Shown in pieces: positions 1,294 through 58,923 of a DNA stretch of 64,000 bases (its first letter is position 1; each line of letters begins with the position of its first letter). A model generated the notes under the pieces. It searched no databases and had not been told where the DNA came from. It worked only from the letters and a program-made list of their open reading frames with translations. The stretch comes from the human T2T-CHM13v2.0 reference genome, Homo sapiens, in the NCBI RefSeq assembly GCF_009914755.1, contig NC_060932.1; one strand, given 5' to 3'. A program made the position numbers and the translations under genes.

Positions 1294-1577
1294 CTAAATT
1301 CCTTGAGACTGTGGCAATTAATAATTGCCACAACAGATTAGTATAAAAATAAAAGATAATATAGACAAAAATATTAGTATAATATCTGATTTATAGTACT
1401 CAATATTTCATTGCTGGAGATTTGAGACTAAATTCCTTGAGACTTATATGTTTAAGTCTCATCTCAATAGAAAATGAAATTAATAATTGACACAACAGAG
1501 TACTGTGAAAATAAGAGATAATATAGACAGAAATATTAGTATAATATCTGATATATATAATTCAATATTTTGTTGCT
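1294..1577 (+). repeat. Tandemly duplicated MIR core fragment (two diverged ~100-nt copies)
   Basis: aattaataattg(c/a)cacaacaga...gataatatagaca.aaatattagtataatatctgat...caatattt occurs at about 1317-1413 and 1478-1577. ctaaattccttgagact occurs at 1294 and 1428. Confidence 0.8.
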
Positions 1578-2800: not shown

Positions 2801-2927
2801 GATGCTAAGAGAGTAAGAAAAAGCAGAAGAAGAAAAAGTAGGTTTTGTTTGTTTGTTTGTTTTTTCCAAATCTAGTCTTTTTATTGTTTCCTTTCTCAAT
2901 AATGAAATCATCTTTCAGTGAGTTATC

Positions 2928-3403
2928 TGTACTGGTTTTAAACATGTCCACATATTCTTTGACACTCCTTCCATTGATTTCAGGCTAACTTTATCAATTT
3001 GTTCCCAGTGAATGTGATGTGGTGAAGTGATGCTGAATAATTTCCAAGGTGAAGTCATAAAAGGCTCCAGAGCTTTTACTTGGAGTTTGCCTTTGAATCT
3101 AGCCACTGTCTTATAAAGAAGTCTAACACCTACATAGAAAGTCCACATGTGGGTGTTCTGGCCACAACTCTAACATATCCCAGCATCAGCCAGCATCAAC
3201 TCCAGGCCTGAGAATAAGAGAAACTTGAGACGATTCCAGCTCCCAGCTTTGGAGCTGCCCGATAGATATGAAGTGATAAAAAGATGAGCAATTTCTGCCC
3301 AGCCTTGACCAAATCACAGATATCTGAGAAAAATAAATATTGTTGATGCTTAGACTACCAAGTTTTGAGATGATTTGTTACATAGCCATAGATAATTGGA
3401 ACA
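2928..3403 (+). mobile_element. MaLR solo LTR, MLT1G-like
   Basis: TG..ggttttaaacatgtccacatattctttgacactcc start, aaataaa signal, and tttgttacatagccatagataattggaaCA end. Confidence 0.75.
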
Positions 3404-6427: not shown

Positions 6428-6518
6428 TATATATTTTCTATATATATATATATAGAAATATACTATATATATTTTGGGTTAGGTATCTATACCAACCTAA
6501 CCCAAAATTTTGCTTGTC

Positions 6519-6565
<47 letters not shown>

Positions 6566-6616: not shown

Positions 6617-6800
6617 GTATATAGCCATCATAACAGGTATGCTACAGGTATGCTCATTCTCCTTCAGGTAGGGACATTTCTCAACAATCTGGCAGTCAAT
6701 CTCAAGTGCACAATGTACGAACAACCAGTGTCATATATATATATATGTATATATATGGAGAGAGAGAGAGAGAGTCAGAGAGAGAGAGACTTATATATAT
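6428..6800. repeat. Complex (TA)n/(CA)n/(GA)n microsatellite cluster with embedded non-repeat segments
   Basis: Direct reading; see findings for the embedded segments. Confidence 0.9.
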
Positions 6801-7607: not shown

Positions 7608-8689
7608 AATTTGTTTATGAAGATGGGATGCTGACAGAGAAAAAGCTCTTTAAAAGAAGAAGAATGAGGGTCTCACAGGCCAACTAATGGGATTTTAGAA
7701 ATGTCTCTGGAAATCAGTGGCAACTACATGGACCAAATTTAATGGTCAACCAGGCAATAAATGGTCCTCCACTTTATTGCTGTTAATGAGGAGATATTAG
7801 GTAGAGGCTTCTGGCTGAGTATTATAAGGTAGAATCAGAGATAGCCATCCTAACAGGTACATTAATTCTCCTTAAGATAGGGATACTTCTCAACAGTCTG
7901 GCAGTCAGTCTCAGGTGCACACTGTAGTAATAACCAGTATTAACATTTTTACTGGAGAGAGGTGGCAGAAGTTTCTACTTGGTTTCAGACAAGTTATGGT
8001 GAAGGTTATGTATACTAAGAATATAAGAAATATATTTCATAAAGAAAAATAATGGCCACTATGGTAAGAAGCCAGGCAAATTGTGAGAATTTTGACTTTT
8101 GCTTCAGATATGAGGGGCAGTGAGATTAATACTTGATAAGGAAACATGACAATTGCAGGACCATCTTATGACTCAAACTCTTTTGCAGTGTGTTATGGCA
8201 ATCATAGGTCCATTTAAATACAACATTAAAAGATCTTACAATTTTGTCAGTGGGTCCAGGCTGCTACAGTGGTGCTTTGGCCCTTTTTGGAAGATTTCAC
8301 TGAACAATCTCCCATGAGAAACTAGAAATGAAACATTTTCTAATAGTTAGGCTTTTACTACCCCAGACTGAGTTTACAATTCTGACAAAGTTGACCTACT
8401 ACTGGAGGATGAGAAACTGACTGAAGTACCTAGAAAAATTCTTGAAATCCGCCATTGTACTGCTCAAAACTGAAAGTAAATACACATGGCTCTGTCCCTC
8501 CATAAACGGAGAATAAAACCATTCTCTCCTTCCATATTTCCTGATTCCTTCCTTCTCCCACTTAAATGATCTCATCTACTTTAAAGACAAGGATGATCAG
8601 GGATGGGACTGAAGTCTTTCTGATCCCCAGTGGAGACCAAAGACCATTCTCAGCTGTCTTTGCTGGAAATATCCTGGGAAATTTAGTAG

Positions 8690-13177: not shown

Positions 13178-16100
13178 CGTACCTCTAACAATCCTATGAA
13201 GTATTCATGGGAGTTCACAAGGCTGCAACAGAATGACTACTGTTTACATCATTAGAACCCCCATCAGGCAGTGCATCAAAAACTTCACCCCAAAAAACAA
13301 CCCATATAACTTTTCATGTTTTCATGAAATTAAACCTCTATAAAAGCTGAGAACCCTCAACTTCTTCAAAAAAGCAAGCAAGCAACCAACCAACCAAAAA
13401 AACGTCTCTAATAATTGGAAAAGGAGACAACTGCCCTTTGTATTTCTTACCTATTTTTTTCTAGCCACTGTCAACAACTAGGGATAAGCATCACTTAAGG
13501 TTTGGGCCAGTGCAATAAGGTAGGAAAATTACACGGCAGCAACACAGTTTAAGATTAAATATTAGATCTTCCTTTTCTCATAAATCTTTTTTTCACCTCA
13601 CCTAAGGATTCCTCACTAGCTATCATCTCCCAAGGTTTCAGCCTCTTTCCATATTGCTCAATATTCCAATAACTTTAAAAAGTTTTCCACTGCTCCTCAT
13701 CCCCTAAATTCAAATTCTTTCACTGATCAACCTTTTTGTTTGTCTTTAATCTTCCATATTACAACCATAGGGTTTGCACATTCAGATGTAAAACTGCCTT
13801 TTTCAAAGCTAGTTAATGTGTGAATGAATTGTAACCTCAAACCATCTAGGGTACGCTGCTGAATTATAACGAAGTATGTCAATGTGTATCATAATGTTTG
13901 ACTATAAAGAAAATAAAAGATGAAACTGTGAATACTTACCTACCAAATAGTTATTTTTTAAATTTGTGGAGAAACTACTGGTTTTAAAAAGGAAGGAAGA
14001 ACTTTTCAAAGGAATGACTCAGAAAAGACAAATCAGAAAAGGGAAAAGTTAATTCAGGAAAATTCTTTAGACAAAATCCATAAGTACTGCTGAGTTAGGG
14101 TTTAGGTGGCACAGAAAAGAATAGTCCCTATCTAAGAAGGCCAAACATCTTATGTATGCTGGGACTGACAGTCTTATTTCCAAGTAATTTTATAAGAGCC
14201 ATAAACTTCACGTGAACTTTTGAAAAGCTGAACTGAAATTCATCATATTCGTAGTTTGTATATACTGCACTCTTCAGTGTTTTGTGCTCTTTAATTCAGT
14301 ACGGTATAGTGAAAATAACATAGAGCTGGAAATCACACACATTTTGGGTTGAATCCCAGTTCCAGCACATATAAAAGCTGTGTTCTCTTGGGCAATTTAC
14401 TTGACGTGTTTTCTCATCTATAAAATTATAGCATTAATTACTTGTAGTCAGTACAATTACTACTACAGAAAAGAAATTAAAGAAAAATTTAATATATATT
14501 ATAAATAAACAGTAAAGGAGACTGAACTCAGGTCCTCTTAAGTCTGGGCTTCTTTTCACTAAAGGGGCATGTTGGGAGGAAATATTAACCATGGTCATAT
14601 CTACCTATTTAGAACAGTGTTTATGATTGGAACTAAGAAGAAATAAAGTTATAAAAAAAGTTCAGAGTCAATTTTTAGAGGCTCCAAAATGCCAGGTTAA
14701 CAATTTTTGAGTTGAATGATATAGCAATGAATTATCTGCAGAATAGAAAAAGTAATGTTTTAAAGTAAGCATATTCTATGATACTAGTGATATGTAAATC
14801 AAATGTGAGAAGGAATGAACTGGAGATGAGAATAGTTACATGATTATTGAAACAACACAGCCCACACCAGCATCATTCAAAATTTTCAGCTAGATGAGAT
14901 TTTTTTGGTAGCTATGTTACATACTACATTTCTACTTTTAATGATAAACAAAAAACATGATAATATTAGAGATTCTGCCAAGTTCTGTAGTTAAAGTAAT
15001 ACAGCAAATCATCTATTTGTCTGACTACCATTGAATACCTTTTCTACCAAATTTATTCATTATTAATATTCAAATAGAACTTTAGGAAATACTAGCTTAA
15101 CGTATTTCATATTCCTAAATCTTTTAGGCTTTAGACAGCCTGGCAATGTTATTAGAAGGGTATATCCTGTATTTAATATTCAATCTGGGTCATATGTGTA
15201 TACATACATGTCTTTAAAATCATAGACCCTCAGTAAAGTCTCTATATTACAACTTCAGTTTCCTTAAATGTCTTTCTTTAAATAAGTTCTTTATGACTCT
15301 AGTCATTTAGCACTTGAAAGTAAGAGTGGCTTATATCTTTATAACTTTGTAGCTGCAATTCAATATCTGTTCTATAATTTGTTTGAAACTGCTCTCTTAA
15401 AATTCTAAATACACTCTCTGGCAATGTTCACTATTGTCTTTCTTAGTTATTGTAATTCTAAAATGAGCTGATCACATTCCTCCCAGGTTTTAACTTCATC
15501 AGACAATTTTGCCTTAATGAGGAAAAAAATAGGTTCACAATAGCCAGTATTGTTATTACTTCCTGTGACAGAAAATAGTAAACAGGGTAAACTTTTTGAA
15601 AAGTCAAATGTGGTCTTTGGTATTCATAGCCCAGAATAAATGCTAATATGTATTATTAATAAATATTTTTATGGTCATGAAAATGAAGAAAATTGGAGTC
15701 ATTTAATAAAGATTTCACAAAAGTTTTTCTCAGCATGGTCTTTATGATGTTTTATTGTTCTTTTTAAAATACTCTTAAACAGGCAGGAAAAATAACCTGT
15801 GTCCTCCTTGCATAATTTAGAAATAAACTTTAGCTAGAAGACAACAAAGTAAATACAAATAATGGTAAGTGAGAAGATTTTCAGAAGTCATTTCTATAGT
15901 CTTAATGGAAAGCCATTTTTGCTTTATGTTTTTTATATCTAAAGGTTTTCTTGTCTTTTTTTTTCCCTCAGAATTTAGTAGAAATATCTAGGAGATGTGA
16001 GACATATTAATGGTTAAAGTAACAATATTAGAACATCCAAAGTGTTTATTTTCAGAATAAATATATACTTGTAAATCCTACTAAATATGAATATTTATCA

Positions 16101-16342
16101 TTCAAACACTGAAATAAAAGTTTACCCAAAATCAAGCACATAAACATAAACTTATATTAACTCCAAATTGGTTCAGAGCATCGTTTTTTCAGATGAGAAA
16201 CACAAGAAGTCATCCAAGATGTCTCCTTTTTCCTTGCCCCAAACTAAAAAAATATGTACTAGTAAAATAACACTTAAAAATCTGTCATAAATATTGGCCT
16301 TAACAATGTAACAGAAGTGTAAAATTTTAAACACATATTTTT

Positions 16343-16536
16343 TTAAAAAAATCAAATAATCGAAATAAGCCACTAAAGCAAATATTGCATAAGTTACATT
16401 ATCAGTAGATAATAACATACAAAAGGAAAGGGATGTATAAAAGCAACGAATATGTTGAAATGTTGATACTTTTGACAAACTTTAAAAAAAATTCATGCTT
16501 CATAAAGGCATATTTGGTTATTTAATTTTCTTCTCA
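16343..16536 (+). repeat. Arm A (presumed donor) of a ~190-bp inverted duplication
   Basis: Reverse complement matches 18804-18993 at roughly 90% by eye. The ORF track shows the twin peptides MSKVSTFQHI.CFYT on opposite strands. Confidence 0.95.
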
Positions 16537-17039
16537 AAATTATTTCGATGCTGCAAACCTACATTTGTCGTGTCTTATTTCCTTGGAATAAATAAGCTAA
16601 AGATGGCTGAAAAGGGACAGTGGGAGTGCAAATGAAGTGCAGTTCATTTAGTTCTGACCTCATTTCATTTCTTCCCAAGAAACACTTATCTCAGAAGTAA
16701 ATCGGTGCCATTTCCAGCTCGTAATACATGATAAGTATGAAAATGAGTTCATCTTTGAAATTTAACATGCAAATTTATATTACTTTCAGTATCTGGATTA
16801 AGTCCGGTTAGAAGAGGAAATCATGAGCTGCTGCTTCAACTCAGTGACCTCACTGCATCAAACTTCCACTTTGCCACTCTGTAGAACAAGGATATGATAT
16901 GTGTAATTAAATGTCCCAATCAGCCTGCCAGTGAGTACGTTACGGTTCATGAATAAGGGAGAGACTCCCTAAGAAAACAGAGTGTCATTTTAAGTTGTTT
17001 TCGGGATCCTCAGTGCAGTTAAATTGACCAATTTATCAC

Positions 17040-17173
17040 AGAGAGAAATATATTAACTGAATTATCCTCCAGAGACTTTGATTTAATTAACCTAGGATGG
17101 GAGTTAGGCATGGATTTTTCTTTTAAAAGCTCTCCAGGTGATTTTCACGTGCAGCCAGGGATGGGGATCACTG
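17040..17173. mobile_element. MER5A-type MITE
   Basis: ttttaaaagctctccaggtgattttcacgtgcagccagg...cactg terminus. Confidence 0.7.
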
Positions 17174-18189
17174 AGCTAAATGAAACCCTCAGGATAAGAT
17201 CCTGTTTCTCAGTGGCTGCTTGGTGACTTCCCTGACCTCCCTATTCATAAAAATTTCAGTTTCATCCAATTTCATCACAGAACTGCTGGGTTTCTTCCTT
17301 CCTCAGATAACTGTACCTACTTTACAGAAAAAAATAGGGGTAGAGGGTTCTGCCATTTGAGAATGATGCCTTCTTCCATTTCCCCCTACAAAAACATTAT
17401 ACCTTCATCGGCTCCTTCCTCAGGGTCTTTCACCTCAAGGGAGAGTATGTGTCAATTTTTATCCAAGGGCAATGCTATCCCCTCTATTCTGAATCTCAGA
17501 TTCTTAACCTCCTAGGACTGTAATGTTACAATTGGCTCAGATCTCACCTGTATTTTCAACTTCTCTCAAGCATTGTATCTTTGTCCTCATTACTTCAGTC
17601 TCTCACATCTTAAAAACAATCTTTCCTCATTGCATGTCCTTTTCCGTCTACAAACCTAGCTAGCTCTTGCCTTTGCTTCAGAGGCAAGCTTCCACTTTTC
17701 ACATAAAGCCTCAGTTTTTTCACCTCATTATTTCTCAATTATTAGCCATGTGGCTTATACATCACTAATTCCAGTGAAAACGATTTTACCCAGGTCACTG
17801 GTGGCCTCTTGGTTGTTGAATTTAATTTATTTTCCTGACCATTTTGCAGCATTTCACAATGTTGATCACATCTGATTTATAAAATATCTCCTTGCTGTGG
17901 TATCATGACACCATTCTCTCTGGTTATGAATCTTTGCTTCTAGCTGCTCCTATTTTAGTCTTTCACAGGCTCAACTTCATCCTCCTATTCCTCATATTGT
18001 TGTTCCCTCAATTCACTTCTGTTTCAACTCTTCTCTACATTTTCTTATCATTCACTTAATCTAAAGTCATATTACTTTTTACCTAAATTACTGAACTAGT
18101 CTTCAAACTGGATACAATTCTTAGTCTTGTCTCTCTCAAACCATATGACATCTTCCTTCTTTTATATTTTATTTCATTCATTTACTTTT

Positions 18190-19890
18190 AAATATCTCCA
18201 GCCTTATTAAGATACAATTGACAAATAAAAAATGTATATATGATATTTTGATATTTGTCTACTTGTGAAAAATTAAATCAAGCTAATTAATATACCCATC
18301 ACCTCACATACTTTTGTGTGGCGAAAACATTTAAAATTTACTCTCTTAGTAAATGCCAAGCATGCAGTATATTATTACTAGTTATAGTCATCAGGCTCAA
18401 CTTTTTAGATTCCACATGTAAGTGAGATCATACAATGTTTGTCTTTGTGCCTGGCTTATCTCACTTAGCAGACTCTCCTCCGGGTTCATCTATGTTGTCA
18501 CATATAATAACATTTCCTTCTTTTTTAAGGCTGAATTGTATTCCATTGTGTGTGTGTGTGTACATATATATGTGTGTGTGTGTGTGTGTGTATTTATGTG
18601 TAATGTATATATTTAGTTAATTGTTATGTATGTATTATGTTATATATAATTATGTATTATATTATGTATATATTATAATATATTTAGTTAATTGTTATGT
18701 ATATAAAATATAATTATGTTATATATTATATATGTTATGTAATATAACATATATACATTATATATAAAATAAATATAAGATATATCCATTATGTATAACA
18801 TTATGAGAAGAATATTAAATAACCAAATATATCTTTATGAGGCATGAATTTTTTCAAGTTTGTCAAAAGTATCAACATTTCAACATATTTATTGCTTTTA
18901 TACCTTCCTTTCCTGTCATATGTTATCATCTACTGATAATCTAATATGCAATATTTGCTTTAGTGGCTTATTTCAATTATTTGATTTTTTTAAGATCAAG
19001 GAGTTTTATATATATATATATAACATAACATATATCCATTATATATAAAACAATGGATGATTCTTCATTCGGTCATCCATTAATGGATGACACTTAGGTT
19101 GATTACATATCTTGGCTACTGTGAATAATTCAGCAATGAATATGGGAATGTAGATATGTCTTGGACATACTGCTTTCATTTTTTTTTGGATAAATATCTA
19201 GTAGCGGGATTGCTGGATCATATGGTAATTCTATTTTTATTTTTTTCAGGAATCTGCATACTATTTTTCATAATGGCTGTACTAATTTACATTCTTACTA
19301 ACAGTATATACAGATTCTCTTTTCTCCATATCCTCACCAATACTTAACTCTTATATTTTTGATGATAGGCAACCTAACAGATGTGAGGTGATACCGTTTC
19401 AATTAATGGTACTGGGAAAACTGCATATCCACATGTAGAAGAAGAAAATTGGACCTTTATTTCACATCTCATACAGGAATGAATTTCAAATGGATTAAAT
19501 AGTTAAATAAAGACCTGAAAGTATAAAACTATTTAAAAAACATAGAGAAAACTAATGTCTCTCTGACATTAGTGTGGCAGCGATTTCCTGTATATGACCC
19601 CAAAAGCATAGGCAACAAAAGCAAAAACAGACAAATGGCATTGCATCAAACTAAAGAGCTTCTGCACGGCAAAGGAAGCAATCAACAGGGTGAAGAGACA
19701 ACATATGAAGTGAGAGAAATTATTTGTAAACCATATACCTGATAAAGGCCTTATGTCCAAAATATATGAGGAATTAAAACATCTTAATGGCAAGAAAACA
19801 ACTCAATTAAGAATGGACAAATGATTGAGTAGACATTTCTCAAAAGAAGACATACAAATGGCCAACAGGTATATGGAAAAAAAATGTTCA
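18190..19890 (-). mobile_element. L1MA-type element with inverted 5' segment (minus 18190-19393, plus about 19395-19890)
   Basis: Antisense 3'UTR/ORF2 end runs up to ctaacagatgtgaggtgata, then sense ORF2 runs from ttcaattaatggtactgggaaaactg to aaatggccaacaggtatatg. Confidence 0.8.
18804..18993 (-). repeat. Arm B (inserted copy) of the inverted duplication, inside AT-rich low-complexity DNA within the L1
   Basis: Matches the reverse complement of 16343-16536. Flanked by atatatccattat(g/a)tataa at 18780 and 19030. Confidence 0.95.
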
Positions 19891-45357: not shown

Positions 45358-48300
45358 GAGCCAAGAGAGCATTGATAAAAGTTATAAGAAACCAAGGCAG
45401 ATGAAGGAAATTCATTTGAAGGATAGGTTTCTTATAGGTAAAGATTGGCAGAATCTTATTTTAGGAAGCAAGAGTAGCATGTGCAATATTACACAGCTGA
45501 TTAAGGGTGGAGGCATTTGGAAGGACAATTTGTATTAAGCAACTAGTAAGTTAGAGGAAATGGTAGTTTTTACTTTTACATTGATTTTTTAAAATACACA
45601 CCACACGACTGAAGTGAAATATTTTTCGGTAAGAGGCAAGTGTGGCATTCTGTAATGAAATATGACAAAAGTGGAAAGATAATGCCAGAAAGTTAGATTT
45701 CCACTACATTGAGGAAGAATTTAAATGCTAGAATGCAAATATATAAGCAAGGGGGAAAAAGGATCAAATTGCAAGCCATACTCCCTGGGTACAAGGCCTG
45801 TCTTTATTACTGCTAAGTATAGGAACTTCTGGTATGTGAGTTTACTCATTAGTAAAATAGAAATATTGAAACCTACAGTGTGTTAATACATTTAAAAAAT
45901 AATGGTGTGAAAGTGCTTTTGAGTTAAAATATGATATATGTATGTACGTGATAACTGATATTATATCACCTCTTAATTCAATAGGTATGGGAAAAAACAA
46001 GTTTTTGATCAAGGAGTATTATTGCAATATTTAAAAGTGAGGAATCCTTTCCTGAAAGCCAAGTGTAATACTTCTTGTAACAGAATAAATAGAAGATAAT
46101 TGCTTTTGTGCAGTTGGGAAGTTTTAAGTGAGTAAAGTAAAAGAGAGGGAACTGAAGATTACTAATGAATGAGATAGAAGTGGCATCAGTGTTGGAATGG
46201 ATGTTGGAAAACAATGAAGACTTTTAAATCTTCATTCATTGGGAAAACGACAGGAAAATAGCAAAGACAAGGCAAAGACAGGTAACCAAGCATTTATTAG
46301 CCCCTCTTTGTTCTGGGTACTTCACTAGGCAAGTTCATGAGTCTGAGATAATCTAGTCCTTCACTGTGGCATTTCAGTTTGGTGCCACCCTTTCCATTTT
46401 TATTTAAAAGGAAAGACAACTTTGTGTAGAATAAATAACTTCCCCAAGTCAAGTAAAAAGAGCAATAGAACTTAAAAGTAAGTTCATCTGATTCCAAATC
46501 CCACGCTTTTACAGATGCAATGACATACTTGTTTTGTAAAAAATACTAATTCAATTGTTATAAAAAGTTGAAAATAAATATTCAACTCTCAGAAGAATAA
46601 AAATGATAAAGACCTGAGGGAAACATGGAAAGTCATGATTACAAACCCTTGAAAGGAGATCAGATTCTTGAAGAAAAAGTGAGTTTTGAAGTGTAACTGT
46701 GAAAAATTTTTATTTTTAGGAAGTGAGAAGGTAAAGTAGATTCAATAAAAGAGTGAAAAATGGGTAGTCAATGGCTACACTCAAGGAAACCAAGCTATTT
46801 CTCAGCCATTACATTCAAGAGAGCTTATAATAATTACAAATACTTATAGCAGTATGGTAAGGAAAGAACTGCCACAGATGTAGGCCATTCTTTAGGAAAG
46901 TTTACTTGTGAAGTGGGGAGAGACAGAACACCTTTGGAAGCTTCTATATACTAACGGTCTCTTTGTAATTACCAAAATAAGATTTATAACTAATATACTA
47001 GCATATTTAGAAAGTTCATGTAAGAAGAATGAGTGAAAATGACTTTATATTCAAAAGTATGGTTGATTTACATTATGATAATAAACTTTTCCTGAATATA
47101 CATTATACAGTAGTGTTTTAATAGTACCAAATGAGTAGCATGTTCCCTGCTGTTTCACTGCTGAGATATACCAGCATTTTAATAATCCAGATACAAATCC
47201 AAAATTTGGAGTCCAAATTGTTATTTGCTCTCAAGAGAAGCCCAAATTTATGTTCACATCTAGTGTGACATAAGAGATTTCAATATCTCTTTTAAAATCT
47301 TCAAAATTCTCCTTTTCCTTTATATCTTCCTATTCAGTCAGAAAAGGCATCAATTAAGGCCTTTCCCACAGAAAGAAAGTCTATGAATATAAGGATCCCA
47401 CAAGCTGAGCTTTCCCAAAAAGTTGGTTATAATTTTAAGGGCATTTAAATTTTTAATTTATTTTTCAGCATAGAAAATGCTGCCAACTTTATATCTCTTT
47501 GGCAGCATTTCTCCCTTTAAAAACTTGTTATATTCTATAGGTATTTCAAATTAGAAACAAAGCTTTTAAGATTTCAAAACACACCTGCTGGGACTATCAC
47601 CTAGGAGAGTAGAGCACAAATGGTAACCAAAATATAACAAGTAAGATACCTTACTTCTCCAAGGATTTTCTCATAGATTTCCTCAGTGATTATAAAAATA
47701 TTGATTACGTGCAAACAAGACTGTTTCTGTTTCATCAACTGGTATCTATAAGCCATTTACTAATACGATGAATTTGAGGTCCTGCTACAGTCATGTGATT
47801 AGAAAATTAATGGAAAATGCTAAACTGCAGTTTTGCTGTTTTAATCAATTCAATTAATTACATTTATTGAGCTCTCTTTGTCACACATACAGAAACATGA
47901 ATACTCATATCTGATTACAAGGATCTTGCACTTAGAAAAGTTTCTAAGAGACAAGAAAAAAAAATTGGGTACTATAATGAAGGAAAACATGAGCTAAGAA
48001 GTTAAGAACCAGATAGTAACTGATTGGAAAAGTAAGAAAAGCTTTATAAAAGAGGATTTTGAGTGAGCACTTGAAGAATATGTAAGATAACACAGGCAAA
48101 AACGCTAAGATATAACATTCTAGGAGGAAGAAACAACAGAACTAAGTAGTCCCAGAAAATCAGATATATTTGAAGCCAACTATGTGGGACAATTTGTTAC
48201 CACACAAAATATGAATGGAAGATTGGGAATATTTTGAAGCATTTTGAATGCCAACACTGAGTACTTTTTGTATAAGTAGGCGACAGGAAAGCTCTGCTGG

Positions 48301-58668: not shown

Positions 58669-58923
58669 AGTGGATAATATGAATGAATAAAAGTATGGAT
58701 TTGAAGAATAAGAAAGAAAACACAATCATTTATGGCAGGCTCACAGTTTCCTCATAATTCCACAATAATATTCTAGAGGAGCCTACTAAAGAATTGAGTG
58801 GATAATATGAATGAATAAAAGTATGGATTTGAAGAAAAAGAAAGAAAACACAATCATTTATGGCAGGCTCACAGTTTCCTCATAATTCCACAAAAATATT
58901 CTAGAGGAGCCTACTAAAGAATT
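58669..58923. repeat. Recent tandem duplication, period 128 bp, 2 copies
   Basis: 58669-58795 versus 58797-58923 differ at two positions by my reading. Confidence 0.97.

What the first reader, a model, noticed from the sequence alone, without database searches (positions are those of the whole stretch)
16343..19048. 190-bp unique segment copied in inverted orientation into a (TA)-rich tract 2.3 kb away
Seen: 18804-18993 is the reverse complement of 16343-16536 (about 90% by eye). The copy interrupts an L1MA inside its expanded AT low-complexity tract, so it is the derived copy. It is bracketed by a 19-nt near-direct repeat (18780-18798 and 19030-19048) and has no poly-A tail or TIRs. Fold-back atggatga/tcatccat motifs follow at about 19053-19090. 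Inference: a fixed germline templated insertion (template switching, MMBIR or polymerase-theta-type repair) at a cruciform-prone (TA)n site. It also gives the CSMD3 pre-mRNA a non-Alu ~190-bp potential duplex.
Basis: partly seen in the sequence, partly recalled or inferred. Interest (0 to 1): 0.7.

Follow-up and report, generated by a model that had tools for sequence, protein, structure and literature searches.

The report
Nearby DNA captured inside TA repeats
A 194-base piece of nearby intron DNA sits copied backwards inside an AT-rich repeat of the human CSMD3 gene, likely an old harmless scar of DNA break repair, and several other TA repeats in the genome hold similar local copies, which suggests such repeats may be recurrent traps for neighbouring DNA.

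Summary
Confirmed. Window 18800-18993 is an inverted copy of 16343-16540 (178/194 identical, two 2-nt gaps), found at only these two sites genome-wide. It lies in an expanded AT tract inside an old L1 piece whose flanks are 47 nt or less apart in 30 of 47 other copies but 541 nt apart here, so it is the derived copy. It fits the known class of repair-mediated duplications (Pace 2009; 824 in human), although it is absent from their table. The flanking 'TSD' is one of three copies of a 31-nt AT unit, and nothing supports a functional RNA duplex.

The wider pattern is the more interesting result. A second local copy sits in a microsatellite 10 kb away in this window, and a third at the same L1 site on chr14. 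Of 6 complex TA-bracketed inserts picked elsewhere (from 15 listed loci), 4 are copies of unique DNA 0.9-2.1 kb away, against 0 of 285 off-site control stretches. TA repeats therefore look like recurrent germline acceptor sites for local templated capture, a link I did not find in print for human. The sample is small and partly hand-picked, and no primate empty alleles could be checked.

The parts
16343..16540 (+). Donor arm: unique intronic DNA, 24% GC, keeps 2 CpG
   Evidence: (unique apart from the copy)
16337..16352 (.). Perfect 16-nt T7/A7 palindrome; the copied stretch ends 2 nt past its centre (noted after the fact)
   Evidence: the only palindrome with arms of 6 nt or more in 15500-17100
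18800..18993 (-). Acceptor: inverted 194-nt copy of the donor, 178/194 identical, no CpG left
18994..19007 (.). 14-nt filler of uncertain origin; 13/14 match at 46007-46020, with 0.08 expected by chance
18200..18548 (-). Left piece of the host high-copy repeat (L1 3' UTR by recall; strand by recall)
   Evidence: (5,465 candidates; best 82-84% over 18397-18548)
18549..18799 (.). Expanded TG then AT-rich tract with 26-, 71- and 31-nt internal duplications
   Evidence: other copies have a short TG/TA seed here
19007..19053 (.).
   Evidence: (D1)
19052..19091 (.). Two short fold-backs: 9-bp stem (19052-19081) and perfect palindrome with 10-bp arms (19072-19091)
   Evidence: longest stem in 47 other copies is 3-9 bp
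19090..19395 (-). Right piece of the host repeat
   Evidence: (5,402 candidates; best 78-82%)
6621..6732 (+). Second case: copy of 7841-7941 inside a TA/CA microsatellite, with a short internal duplication
   Evidence: (92/108 identical)
7841..7941 (+). Likely donor of the second case, about 1.1 kb away, direct orientation

Best explanation
An inverted 194-nt copy of unique DNA from 2.3 kb away interrupts an expanded AT tract inside an old repeat; it is likely a neutral germline repair scar, made when a broken or stalled DNA end in the tract would have switched template to the nearby donor, copied it and returned. Shown: two-site uniqueness, direction (donor to tract), filler, flanking unit duplication, fold-backs. 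Inferred steps: (1) the native TG/TA seed of the L1 3' UTR expanded and became break- or stall-prone; (2) a 3' end invaded the donor on the opposite strand and copied 194 nt, stopping at the T7/A7 palindrome (SDSA-like or MMBIR-like synthesis); (3) it picked up 14 nt of filler and TA, and rejoined about one 31-nt unit upstream, which left the direct repeat; (4) short fold-back synthesis gave the 9-10 bp palindromes, in the same event or another; (5) both arms then drifted for roughly 40 million years (22-59, using the 2.2e-9 rate of Pace et al.). The same process likely recurs at TA microsatellites across the genome.
For: Only two sites genome-wide. Host flanks are 47 nt or less apart in 30 of 47 other copies and 541 nt apart here. 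Size 194 nt, distance 2,260 nt, 14-nt filler and no tail lie inside the ranges of repair-mediated duplications: mean 162 bp, donor within 5 kb, filler 1-68 nt (PMC2671141). Divergence 16/194, K2P 0.088, 11 transitions, both CpG lost in the copy. Recurrence: in 124 kb of CSMD3 intron DNA both dispersed unique local pairs have one arm in a purine-pyrimidine microsatellite, and both tract-bracketed stretches are such copies (background 7 of 29,619). One of 47 other L1 copies holds a 147-nt local copy at the same site, and the local copy is its best non-self hit, 147 vs 137 bits. 4 of 6 complex TA-bracketed inserts are 91-98% copies of DNA 0.9-2.1 kb away, each at two sites only, vs 0 of 285 off-site controls (Fisher 5e-8; 4e-6 counting all 15 listed loci). 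TA repeats break and give short duplications in ecDNA (PMC13645644); Csmd3 is named as a recurrent-break gene in mouse neural progenitors (PMC9352722).
Against: No orthologous empty allele could be examined. No clear junction microhomology at the focal site. The tract is degenerate (longest pure TA run 16 nt), and whether it was long before the insertion or grew afterwards is unknown. The six test loci were picked by eye from 15 listed, 34 match rows were not shown, and the tool scores only best candidates; 2 of the 6 gave no clear distant donor. Against any local hit in controls (19 of 289) the 4 of 15 is only p 0.02. In 174 kb of L1-selected loci none of 4 (strict) or 15 (loose) weak-tract brackets held a unique local copy, and one local copy (L022) has no microsatellite. 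The focal case is the only clearly inverted one of seven. Polymorphic human NUMTs show no microsatellite enrichment (PMC4227756).
Confidence: 0.82

Rival explanations
1. Polymerase-theta end joining alone made the whole structure by repeated rounds of copying at a cut TA cruciform.
For: Filler, short fold-backs and a duplicated flank unit resemble foldback and expansion insertions described for POLQ (PMC11541566); short duplications under 5 kb at TA-rich fragile regions were near absent with Pol-theta inhibition (PMC13645644).
Against: POLQ templates at fragile sites peak within about 20 bp of the junction and are typically under 10 bp in net size; this insert is 194 nt from 2.3 kb away with no clear microhomology.
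Confidence: 0.08
2. RNA-templated insertion: a piece of CSMD3 intron RNA was reverse transcribed (L1 ORF2 or RNA-templated repair) into a break in the AT tract.
For: The donor is inside a transcribed gene; a TSD-like 19-nt repeat is present; RNA origin is proposed for templated sequence insertions (PMC5110952).
Against: No added poly-A; the direct repeat is offset by 36 nt and is one of three units; an RNA intermediate does not explain donors that are always within about 2.3 kb in 7 of 7 cases; none of 39 proximal duplications in Pace et al. had a tail.
Confidence: 0.04
3. The pair is kept because it forms a functional double-stranded RNA in the CSMD3 pre-mRNA (editing or splicing).
For: Both arms lie in one intron of the selected transcript; predicted duplex -241 kcal/mol with a 51-bp unbroken paired run.
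Against: 8% divergence is in the range seen for old repair duplications (5.5-17% in the 15 chr8 'All primates' rows seen); wobble-keeping changes 7 vs 4, p 0.55; the opposite strand pairs about as well (-233); 3 of 5 other inverted pairs in the window are stronger; no exon between the arms; no Rfam family at gathering score.
Confidence: 0.04
4. Both arms are independent copies of an unrecognised low-copy transposon.
For: The genome search tool misses copies near 85% identity.
Against: Two sites only, 2.3 kb apart; no TIR; the donor runs on into unique DNA on both sides.
Confidence: 0.02

Closest known systems
Repair-mediated duplications (RDs), Pace, Sen, Batzer and Feschotte 2009, PMC2671141
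   Same: A transposon piece interrupted by a copy of unique DNA from under 5 kb away; size, distance, filler, lack of tail and divergence all within their ranges; an inverted example is described (ACSBG2).
   Different: The acceptor is wrapped in an expanded microsatellite, so the donor explains only 194 of about 498 extra nt and their 80% match filter would likely drop it; no CSMD3 row in their Table S1; the paper never uses 'microsatellite', 'simple repeat' or 'low complexity'.
Doublets, Thomas et al. 2004 (known only through the discussion in Pace et al.; paper not held)
   Same: Short, local, two-copy duplications thought to come from break repair.
   Different: Surveys of that kind covered near-identical pairs under 100 bp; whether they noted a TA-tract link I could not check.
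Filler-DNA capture at (TA)n repeats in plants (endogenous florendoviruses, PMC4241990)
   Same: Inserts flanked by (TA)n on both sides, repeat shown to pre-exist from empty orthologs, break repair proposed.
   Different: There the filler is viral DNA from elsewhere; here it is chromosomal DNA 0.9-2.3 kb away, in a primate germline.
MMEJ repair of TA-repeat breaks on ecDNA (PMC13645644)
   Same: TA repeats break; loss of FANCM gives duplications under 5 kb in TA-rich fragile regions.
   Different: Somatic, circular cancer DNA; the authors saw no raised TA breakage on the linear amplification; inserts inside the tract are not described in the parts I read.
Short-range template switches (Walker et al. 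2021, PMC7954356)
   Same: Reverse-complement copying that makes perfect inverted repeats, enriched in AT-rich DNA; fits the 9-10 bp fold-backs.
   Different: Median copied length 12 nt, maximum 128, from the immediate vicinity; the 194-nt, 2.3-kb jump is outside this.

Membership tests
Repair-mediated duplication (Pace 2009) | Insert of 50 bp or more interrupts a transposon whose two pieces are otherwise contiguous | tested here: met
   Flanks 47 nt or less apart in 30 of 47 paralogous copies vs 541 here; tested with paralogs, not RepeatMasker
Repair-mediated duplication (Pace 2009) | Insert found at one other place only | tested here: met
   tool can miss copies near 85% identity
Repair-mediated duplication (Pace 2009) | Donor between 50 bp and 5 kb away | tested here: met
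   2,260 nt
Repair-mediated duplication (Pace 2009) | No poly-A/T tail; filler, deletion or microhomology at the junctions | tested here: met
   14-nt filler, terminal T7 is donor-templated; microhomology unclear
Repair-mediated duplication (Pace 2009) | Pipeline filter: donor matches at least 80% of the interrupting sequence | tested here: not met
   194 of about 498 extra nt; the rest is microsatellite, hence filed as a variant
Repair-mediated duplication (Pace 2009) | Empty orthologous site in an outgroup | not testable with these tools
   No primate genomes held (no relatives)
Class 1 TSIP / L1-mediated insertion (PMC5110952) | Poly-A tail after a polyadenylation signal and a clean target-site duplication | tested here: not met
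   No added tail; direct repeat offset by 36 nt and three-copy
Class 2 TSIP (PMC5110952) | Patch from a distant genomic region | tested here: not met
   Donor is 2.3 kb away
Class 2 TSIP (PMC5110952) | Polymorphic in people | not testable with these tools
   One genome; 8% divergence makes it unlikely (inference)
POLQ (TMEJ) templated insertion | Short insert templated within about 20 bp of the junction with 2-3 bp microhomology | tested here: not met
   194 nt from 2.3 kb; the 9-10 bp fold-backs do fit
Non-autonomous DNA transposon (MITE) | Terminal inverted repeats and many copies | tested here: not met
   6/20 end matches; two sites
Functional intronic dsRNA (ADAR substrate) | Editing or duplex reads on both arms | not testable with these tools
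   No RNA data
Functional intronic dsRNA (ADAR substrate) | Changes that keep pairing on the transcribed strand | tested here: inconclusive
   7 G-U-keeping vs 4 A-C transitions, p 0.55

The most novel reading that the evidence does not exclude
(TA)n microsatellites are germline hot spots that capture 70-200 bp of unique DNA from within about 2.5 kb, leaving a genome-wide, datable fossil record of repair at TA repeats on linear chromosomes; repeat-filtering pipelines have discarded this class, and this inverted CSMD3 case is one member.
Probability: 0.55. Interest if true: 0.65.

Novelty: new variant of a known kind. Interest (0 to 1): 0.45.

Why it matters
The single locus is an ordinary old repair duplication with no sign of function. 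The pattern matters more. TA-repeat fragility is studied mainly in cancer cells, yeast reporters and circular DNA; if TA tracts in the reference genome commonly hold copies of neighbouring DNA, each is a datable germline repair event with known donor, distance and orientation. That would make testable, from assemblies alone, whether TA repeats break in the normal primate germline, which pathway repairs them, and how far a broken end searches. It would also mean some 'interrupted' TA repeats are insertions, not slippage products.

Tried and rejected
Filler origin: a 13/14 match 27 kb away (46007-46020) has 0.08 expected by chance and the flanks do not extend convincingly; left open. Clean TSD reading: rejected. 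Wobble or strand bias for an RNA duplex: not significant. Rfam: only sub-threshold matches, mir-6130 family 40 vs 117 bits inside the host repeat. Searches had a bug (the window's self-match counted as a distant hit beyond 20 and 15 kb); one search corrects it, and the locus pairs and the background are not affected. A 1-2 Mb unbiased census was planned; only 60 kb beyond the window plus six 4.8-kb loci were read, so base rates rest on 124 kb. L058 (72 nt, 76%) and L073 (42 nt, 76%, E 0.001) were judged too weak to count; L072 is a roughly 35-nt copy of its own adjacent flank, counted as a miss. Weak purine-pyrimidine brackets in L1-selected loci held no unique local copy. Thomas 2004 and Abyzov 2015 are not held. 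Table S1 of Pace et al. was searched by gene name and by hg18 prefixes estimated from recalled offsets; 30 of 151 'chr8' occurrences were seen; its other three supplements were not read.

Full report
Observation. Window 18800-18993 is the reverse complement of 16343-16540: 178 of 194 aligned bases identical, 16 mismatches, two 2-nt gaps, 2,260 nt between the arms. It is the best-scoring non-transposon pair in a self-comparison of the window. A search of the whole genome with the arm, and with 15500-17100, returns only these two places. That tool has a limit: it did not return an 85%-identical 108-nt copy that exists in this window (against 18), so older copies could be missed.

Direction. The DNA on both sides of the AT tract belongs to a high-copy repeat (L1 3' UTR by recall, subfamily not tested). 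Of 58 fetched copies, 47 gave both flanks. In 30 of 47 the flanks are 47 nt or less apart (most often 43), in 8 they are 48-149 apart and in 9 they are 150 or more; in the window they are 541 apart. The other copies carry a short TG/TA seed at this spot, expanded in several. So the arm in the tract is the insert and the arm in unique DNA is the donor.

Junctions. On the left the insert abuts the tract with no clear microhomology. On the right come a 14-nt filler, a 16-nt TA run and a third copy of a 31-nt unit that is present twice on the left. The filler has a 13/14 match 27 kb away, with 0.08 expected by chance: unresolved. There is no terminal inverted repeat and no added tail. The copy stops 2 nt past the centre of a perfect T7/A7 palindrome in the donor (noticed after the fact). 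Two fold-backs follow at 19052-19091; the 10-bp-arm palindrome is longer than the longest stem in any of 47 other copies (3-9 bp).

Age. p-distance 8.2% (95% interval 4.8-13.0), K2P 8.8%, 11 of 16 changes transitions, both CpG of the donor absent in the copy. With the 2.2e-9 rate used by Pace et al. this is about 40 million years (22-59). Fixation is inferred from that age; only one genome was seen.

RNA duplex. Both arms lie in one intron of the selected CSMD3 transcript with no exon between them (hub annotation). The predicted duplex is -241 kcal/mol on the transcribed strand and -233 on the other; five other inverted pairs from the window give -191 to -562, three of them stronger. Transitions that keep a G-U pair number 7 against 4 (p 0.55). 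Rfam gives nothing at gathering score. A duplex may form, but nothing points to function.

Known class. Pace et al. 2009 (PMC2671141; read parts 1-5 of 8 and the methods section on identification) found 824 human repair-mediated duplications: transposons interrupted by a copy of unique DNA within 5 kb, mean 162 bp, with filler of 1-68 nt, no tail, assigned to SDSA. This locus meets those features. It has no row under CSMD3 in their Table S1. Their filter needs the donor to match 80% of the interruption; here it covers 194 of about 498 nt, so microsatellite-wrapped cases would likely be lost. The paper does not use the words microsatellite, simple repeat or low complexity.

Recurrence at microsatellites. 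(a) Window 6621-6732 lies inside a TA/CA microsatellite and is a direct copy of 7841-7941 (92/108). In 124 kb of CSMD3 intron DNA (window plus 60 kb), 17 local pairs were found, 13 of them common repeats, 2 tandem or near-tandem and 2 dispersed and unique; both dispersed pairs have one arm in a purine-pyrimidine tract, and both of the 2 tract-bracketed stretches among 27 tracts are these copies. One of the two is the finding itself. Random stretches have such flanks 7 times in 29,619. (b) One of the 47 L1 copies (L008, chr14) holds a 147-nt insert at the same site, in a TG/CA tract; a copy 1.4 kb away is 87% identical and is the best non-self hit among 40 scored of 1,108 candidates, 147 against 137 bits. 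(c) A pattern for complex DNA between two (AT)6 runs listed 15 distinct places in the rows shown, with 34 rows unseen. By eye 6 were minisatellite or pure dinucleotide, 3 looked like Alu or L1 pieces (recalled) and 6 were complex; only these 6 were fetched. Four are direct copies of DNA 891-2,149 nt away at 96, 98, 91 and 93% identity, each found at exactly two sites genome-wide. One repeats about 35 nt of its own flank and one has only a weak 42-nt match. Of 289 random control stretches 19 had any local hit and 4 a unique one, all 4 being draws that landed on the test inserts: 4 of 6 against 0 of 285, p 5e-8; 4 of 15 against 0 of 285, p 4e-6; 4 of 15 against 19 of 289, p 0.02. Runs of (AT)6 or more cover 0.10-0.16% of the sampled DNA, so this many acceptors in tracts is well above a random share (inference from a small sample).

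Against the general claim. The loci were few and hand-picked. In 174 kb of L1-selected loci, 0 of 4 strict and 0 of 15 loose brackets held a unique local copy, so weak tracts do not show the effect. L022 is a local copy with no microsatellite. No (CA)n or poly-A control was run. Without empty alleles the tract may have grown with or after the insert. Polymorphic NUMTs show no microsatellite enrichment (PMC4227756, passages).

Mechanism. Best reading: a broken or stalled end in the tract switched to a template 2.3 kb away on the opposite strand, copied 194 nt, added filler and TA, and rejoined one unit upstream; short fold-backs record further local copying. The long jump fits SDSA-like or MMBIR-like synthesis better than POLQ alone, whose templates lie within about 20 bp (PMC11541566, passages). 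The fold-backs fit POLQ foldback or short-range template switching (PMC7954356, passages). Breakage at TA repeats with short duplications is reported for ecDNA (PMC13645644, passages and section 10), capture of filler DNA at pre-existing (TA)n is reported in plants (PMC4241990, passages), and Csmd3 is named among recurrent-break genes in mouse neural progenitors (PMC9352722, passages). The focal tract is degenerate (longest pure TA run 16 nt), so cruciform cutting there is inferred.

Novelty. The locus is an unlisted example of a known kind. A link between human germline local duplications and TA-tract acceptors did not turn up in nine full-text searches, judged from listings and abstract starts. 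The library lacks most subscription papers, and Thomas 2004 and Abyzov 2015 could not be read, so prior description is quite possible. One long-read study states that it removed indels in short repeats (PMC8082928, passages), which shows how the class could be overlooked. PMC5110952 was read in part 1 of 4. Verdict: new variant of a known kind, interest 0.45; most of that comes from the general pattern, not from this locus.

Noticed in passing
window 6621-6732 and 7841-7941: Second local copy (92/108 identical, direct, about 1.1 kb) sitting inside a TA/CA microsatellite, with a short internal duplication.
   Followed up: yes
L008 1304-1450 vs 2869-3016 (G000:C14 near 88.56 Mb): 147-nt copy of sequence 1.4 kb away inserted at the same L1 site as the finding, in a TG/CA tract; the local copy is the best non-self hit.
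   Followed up: yes
L071 2341-2439, L074 2364-2445, L075 2341-2455, L076 2374-2445 (C2, C5, C12, C15): TA-bracketed inserts that are 91-98% copies of unique DNA 0.9-2.1 kb away. L071 copies the same donor twice (72 nt, then a 24-nt restart), which suggests repeated template switching.
   Followed up: yes
window 58669-58923: Young tandem duplication of 127 bp, 98% identical.
   Followed up: no
window 1316-1415 and 1478-1577: Near-tandem 100-bp duplication, 87% identical, 63 nt apart, with a short repeated motif before each copy.
   Followed up: partly
L022 867-991 vs 1955-2082: Local 125-nt copy, 88% identical, about 1 kb apart, with no microsatellite at either arm.
   Followed up: partly
window 6428-6551: AT-rich imperfect palindrome (about 124 nt, 79% self-complementary) directly left of the microsatellite that holds the second insert.
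   Followed up: no
L004-L063, L1 site matching window 18549-19089: This one site of the repeat is often altered: 17 of 47 copies are longer than 47 nt there, through microsatellite growth or inserted elements (a few gaps may be alignment artefacts).
   Followed up: partly
window 46007-46020: 13/14 match to the filler at the right junction, 27 kb away; 0.08 expected by chance.
   Followed up: partly
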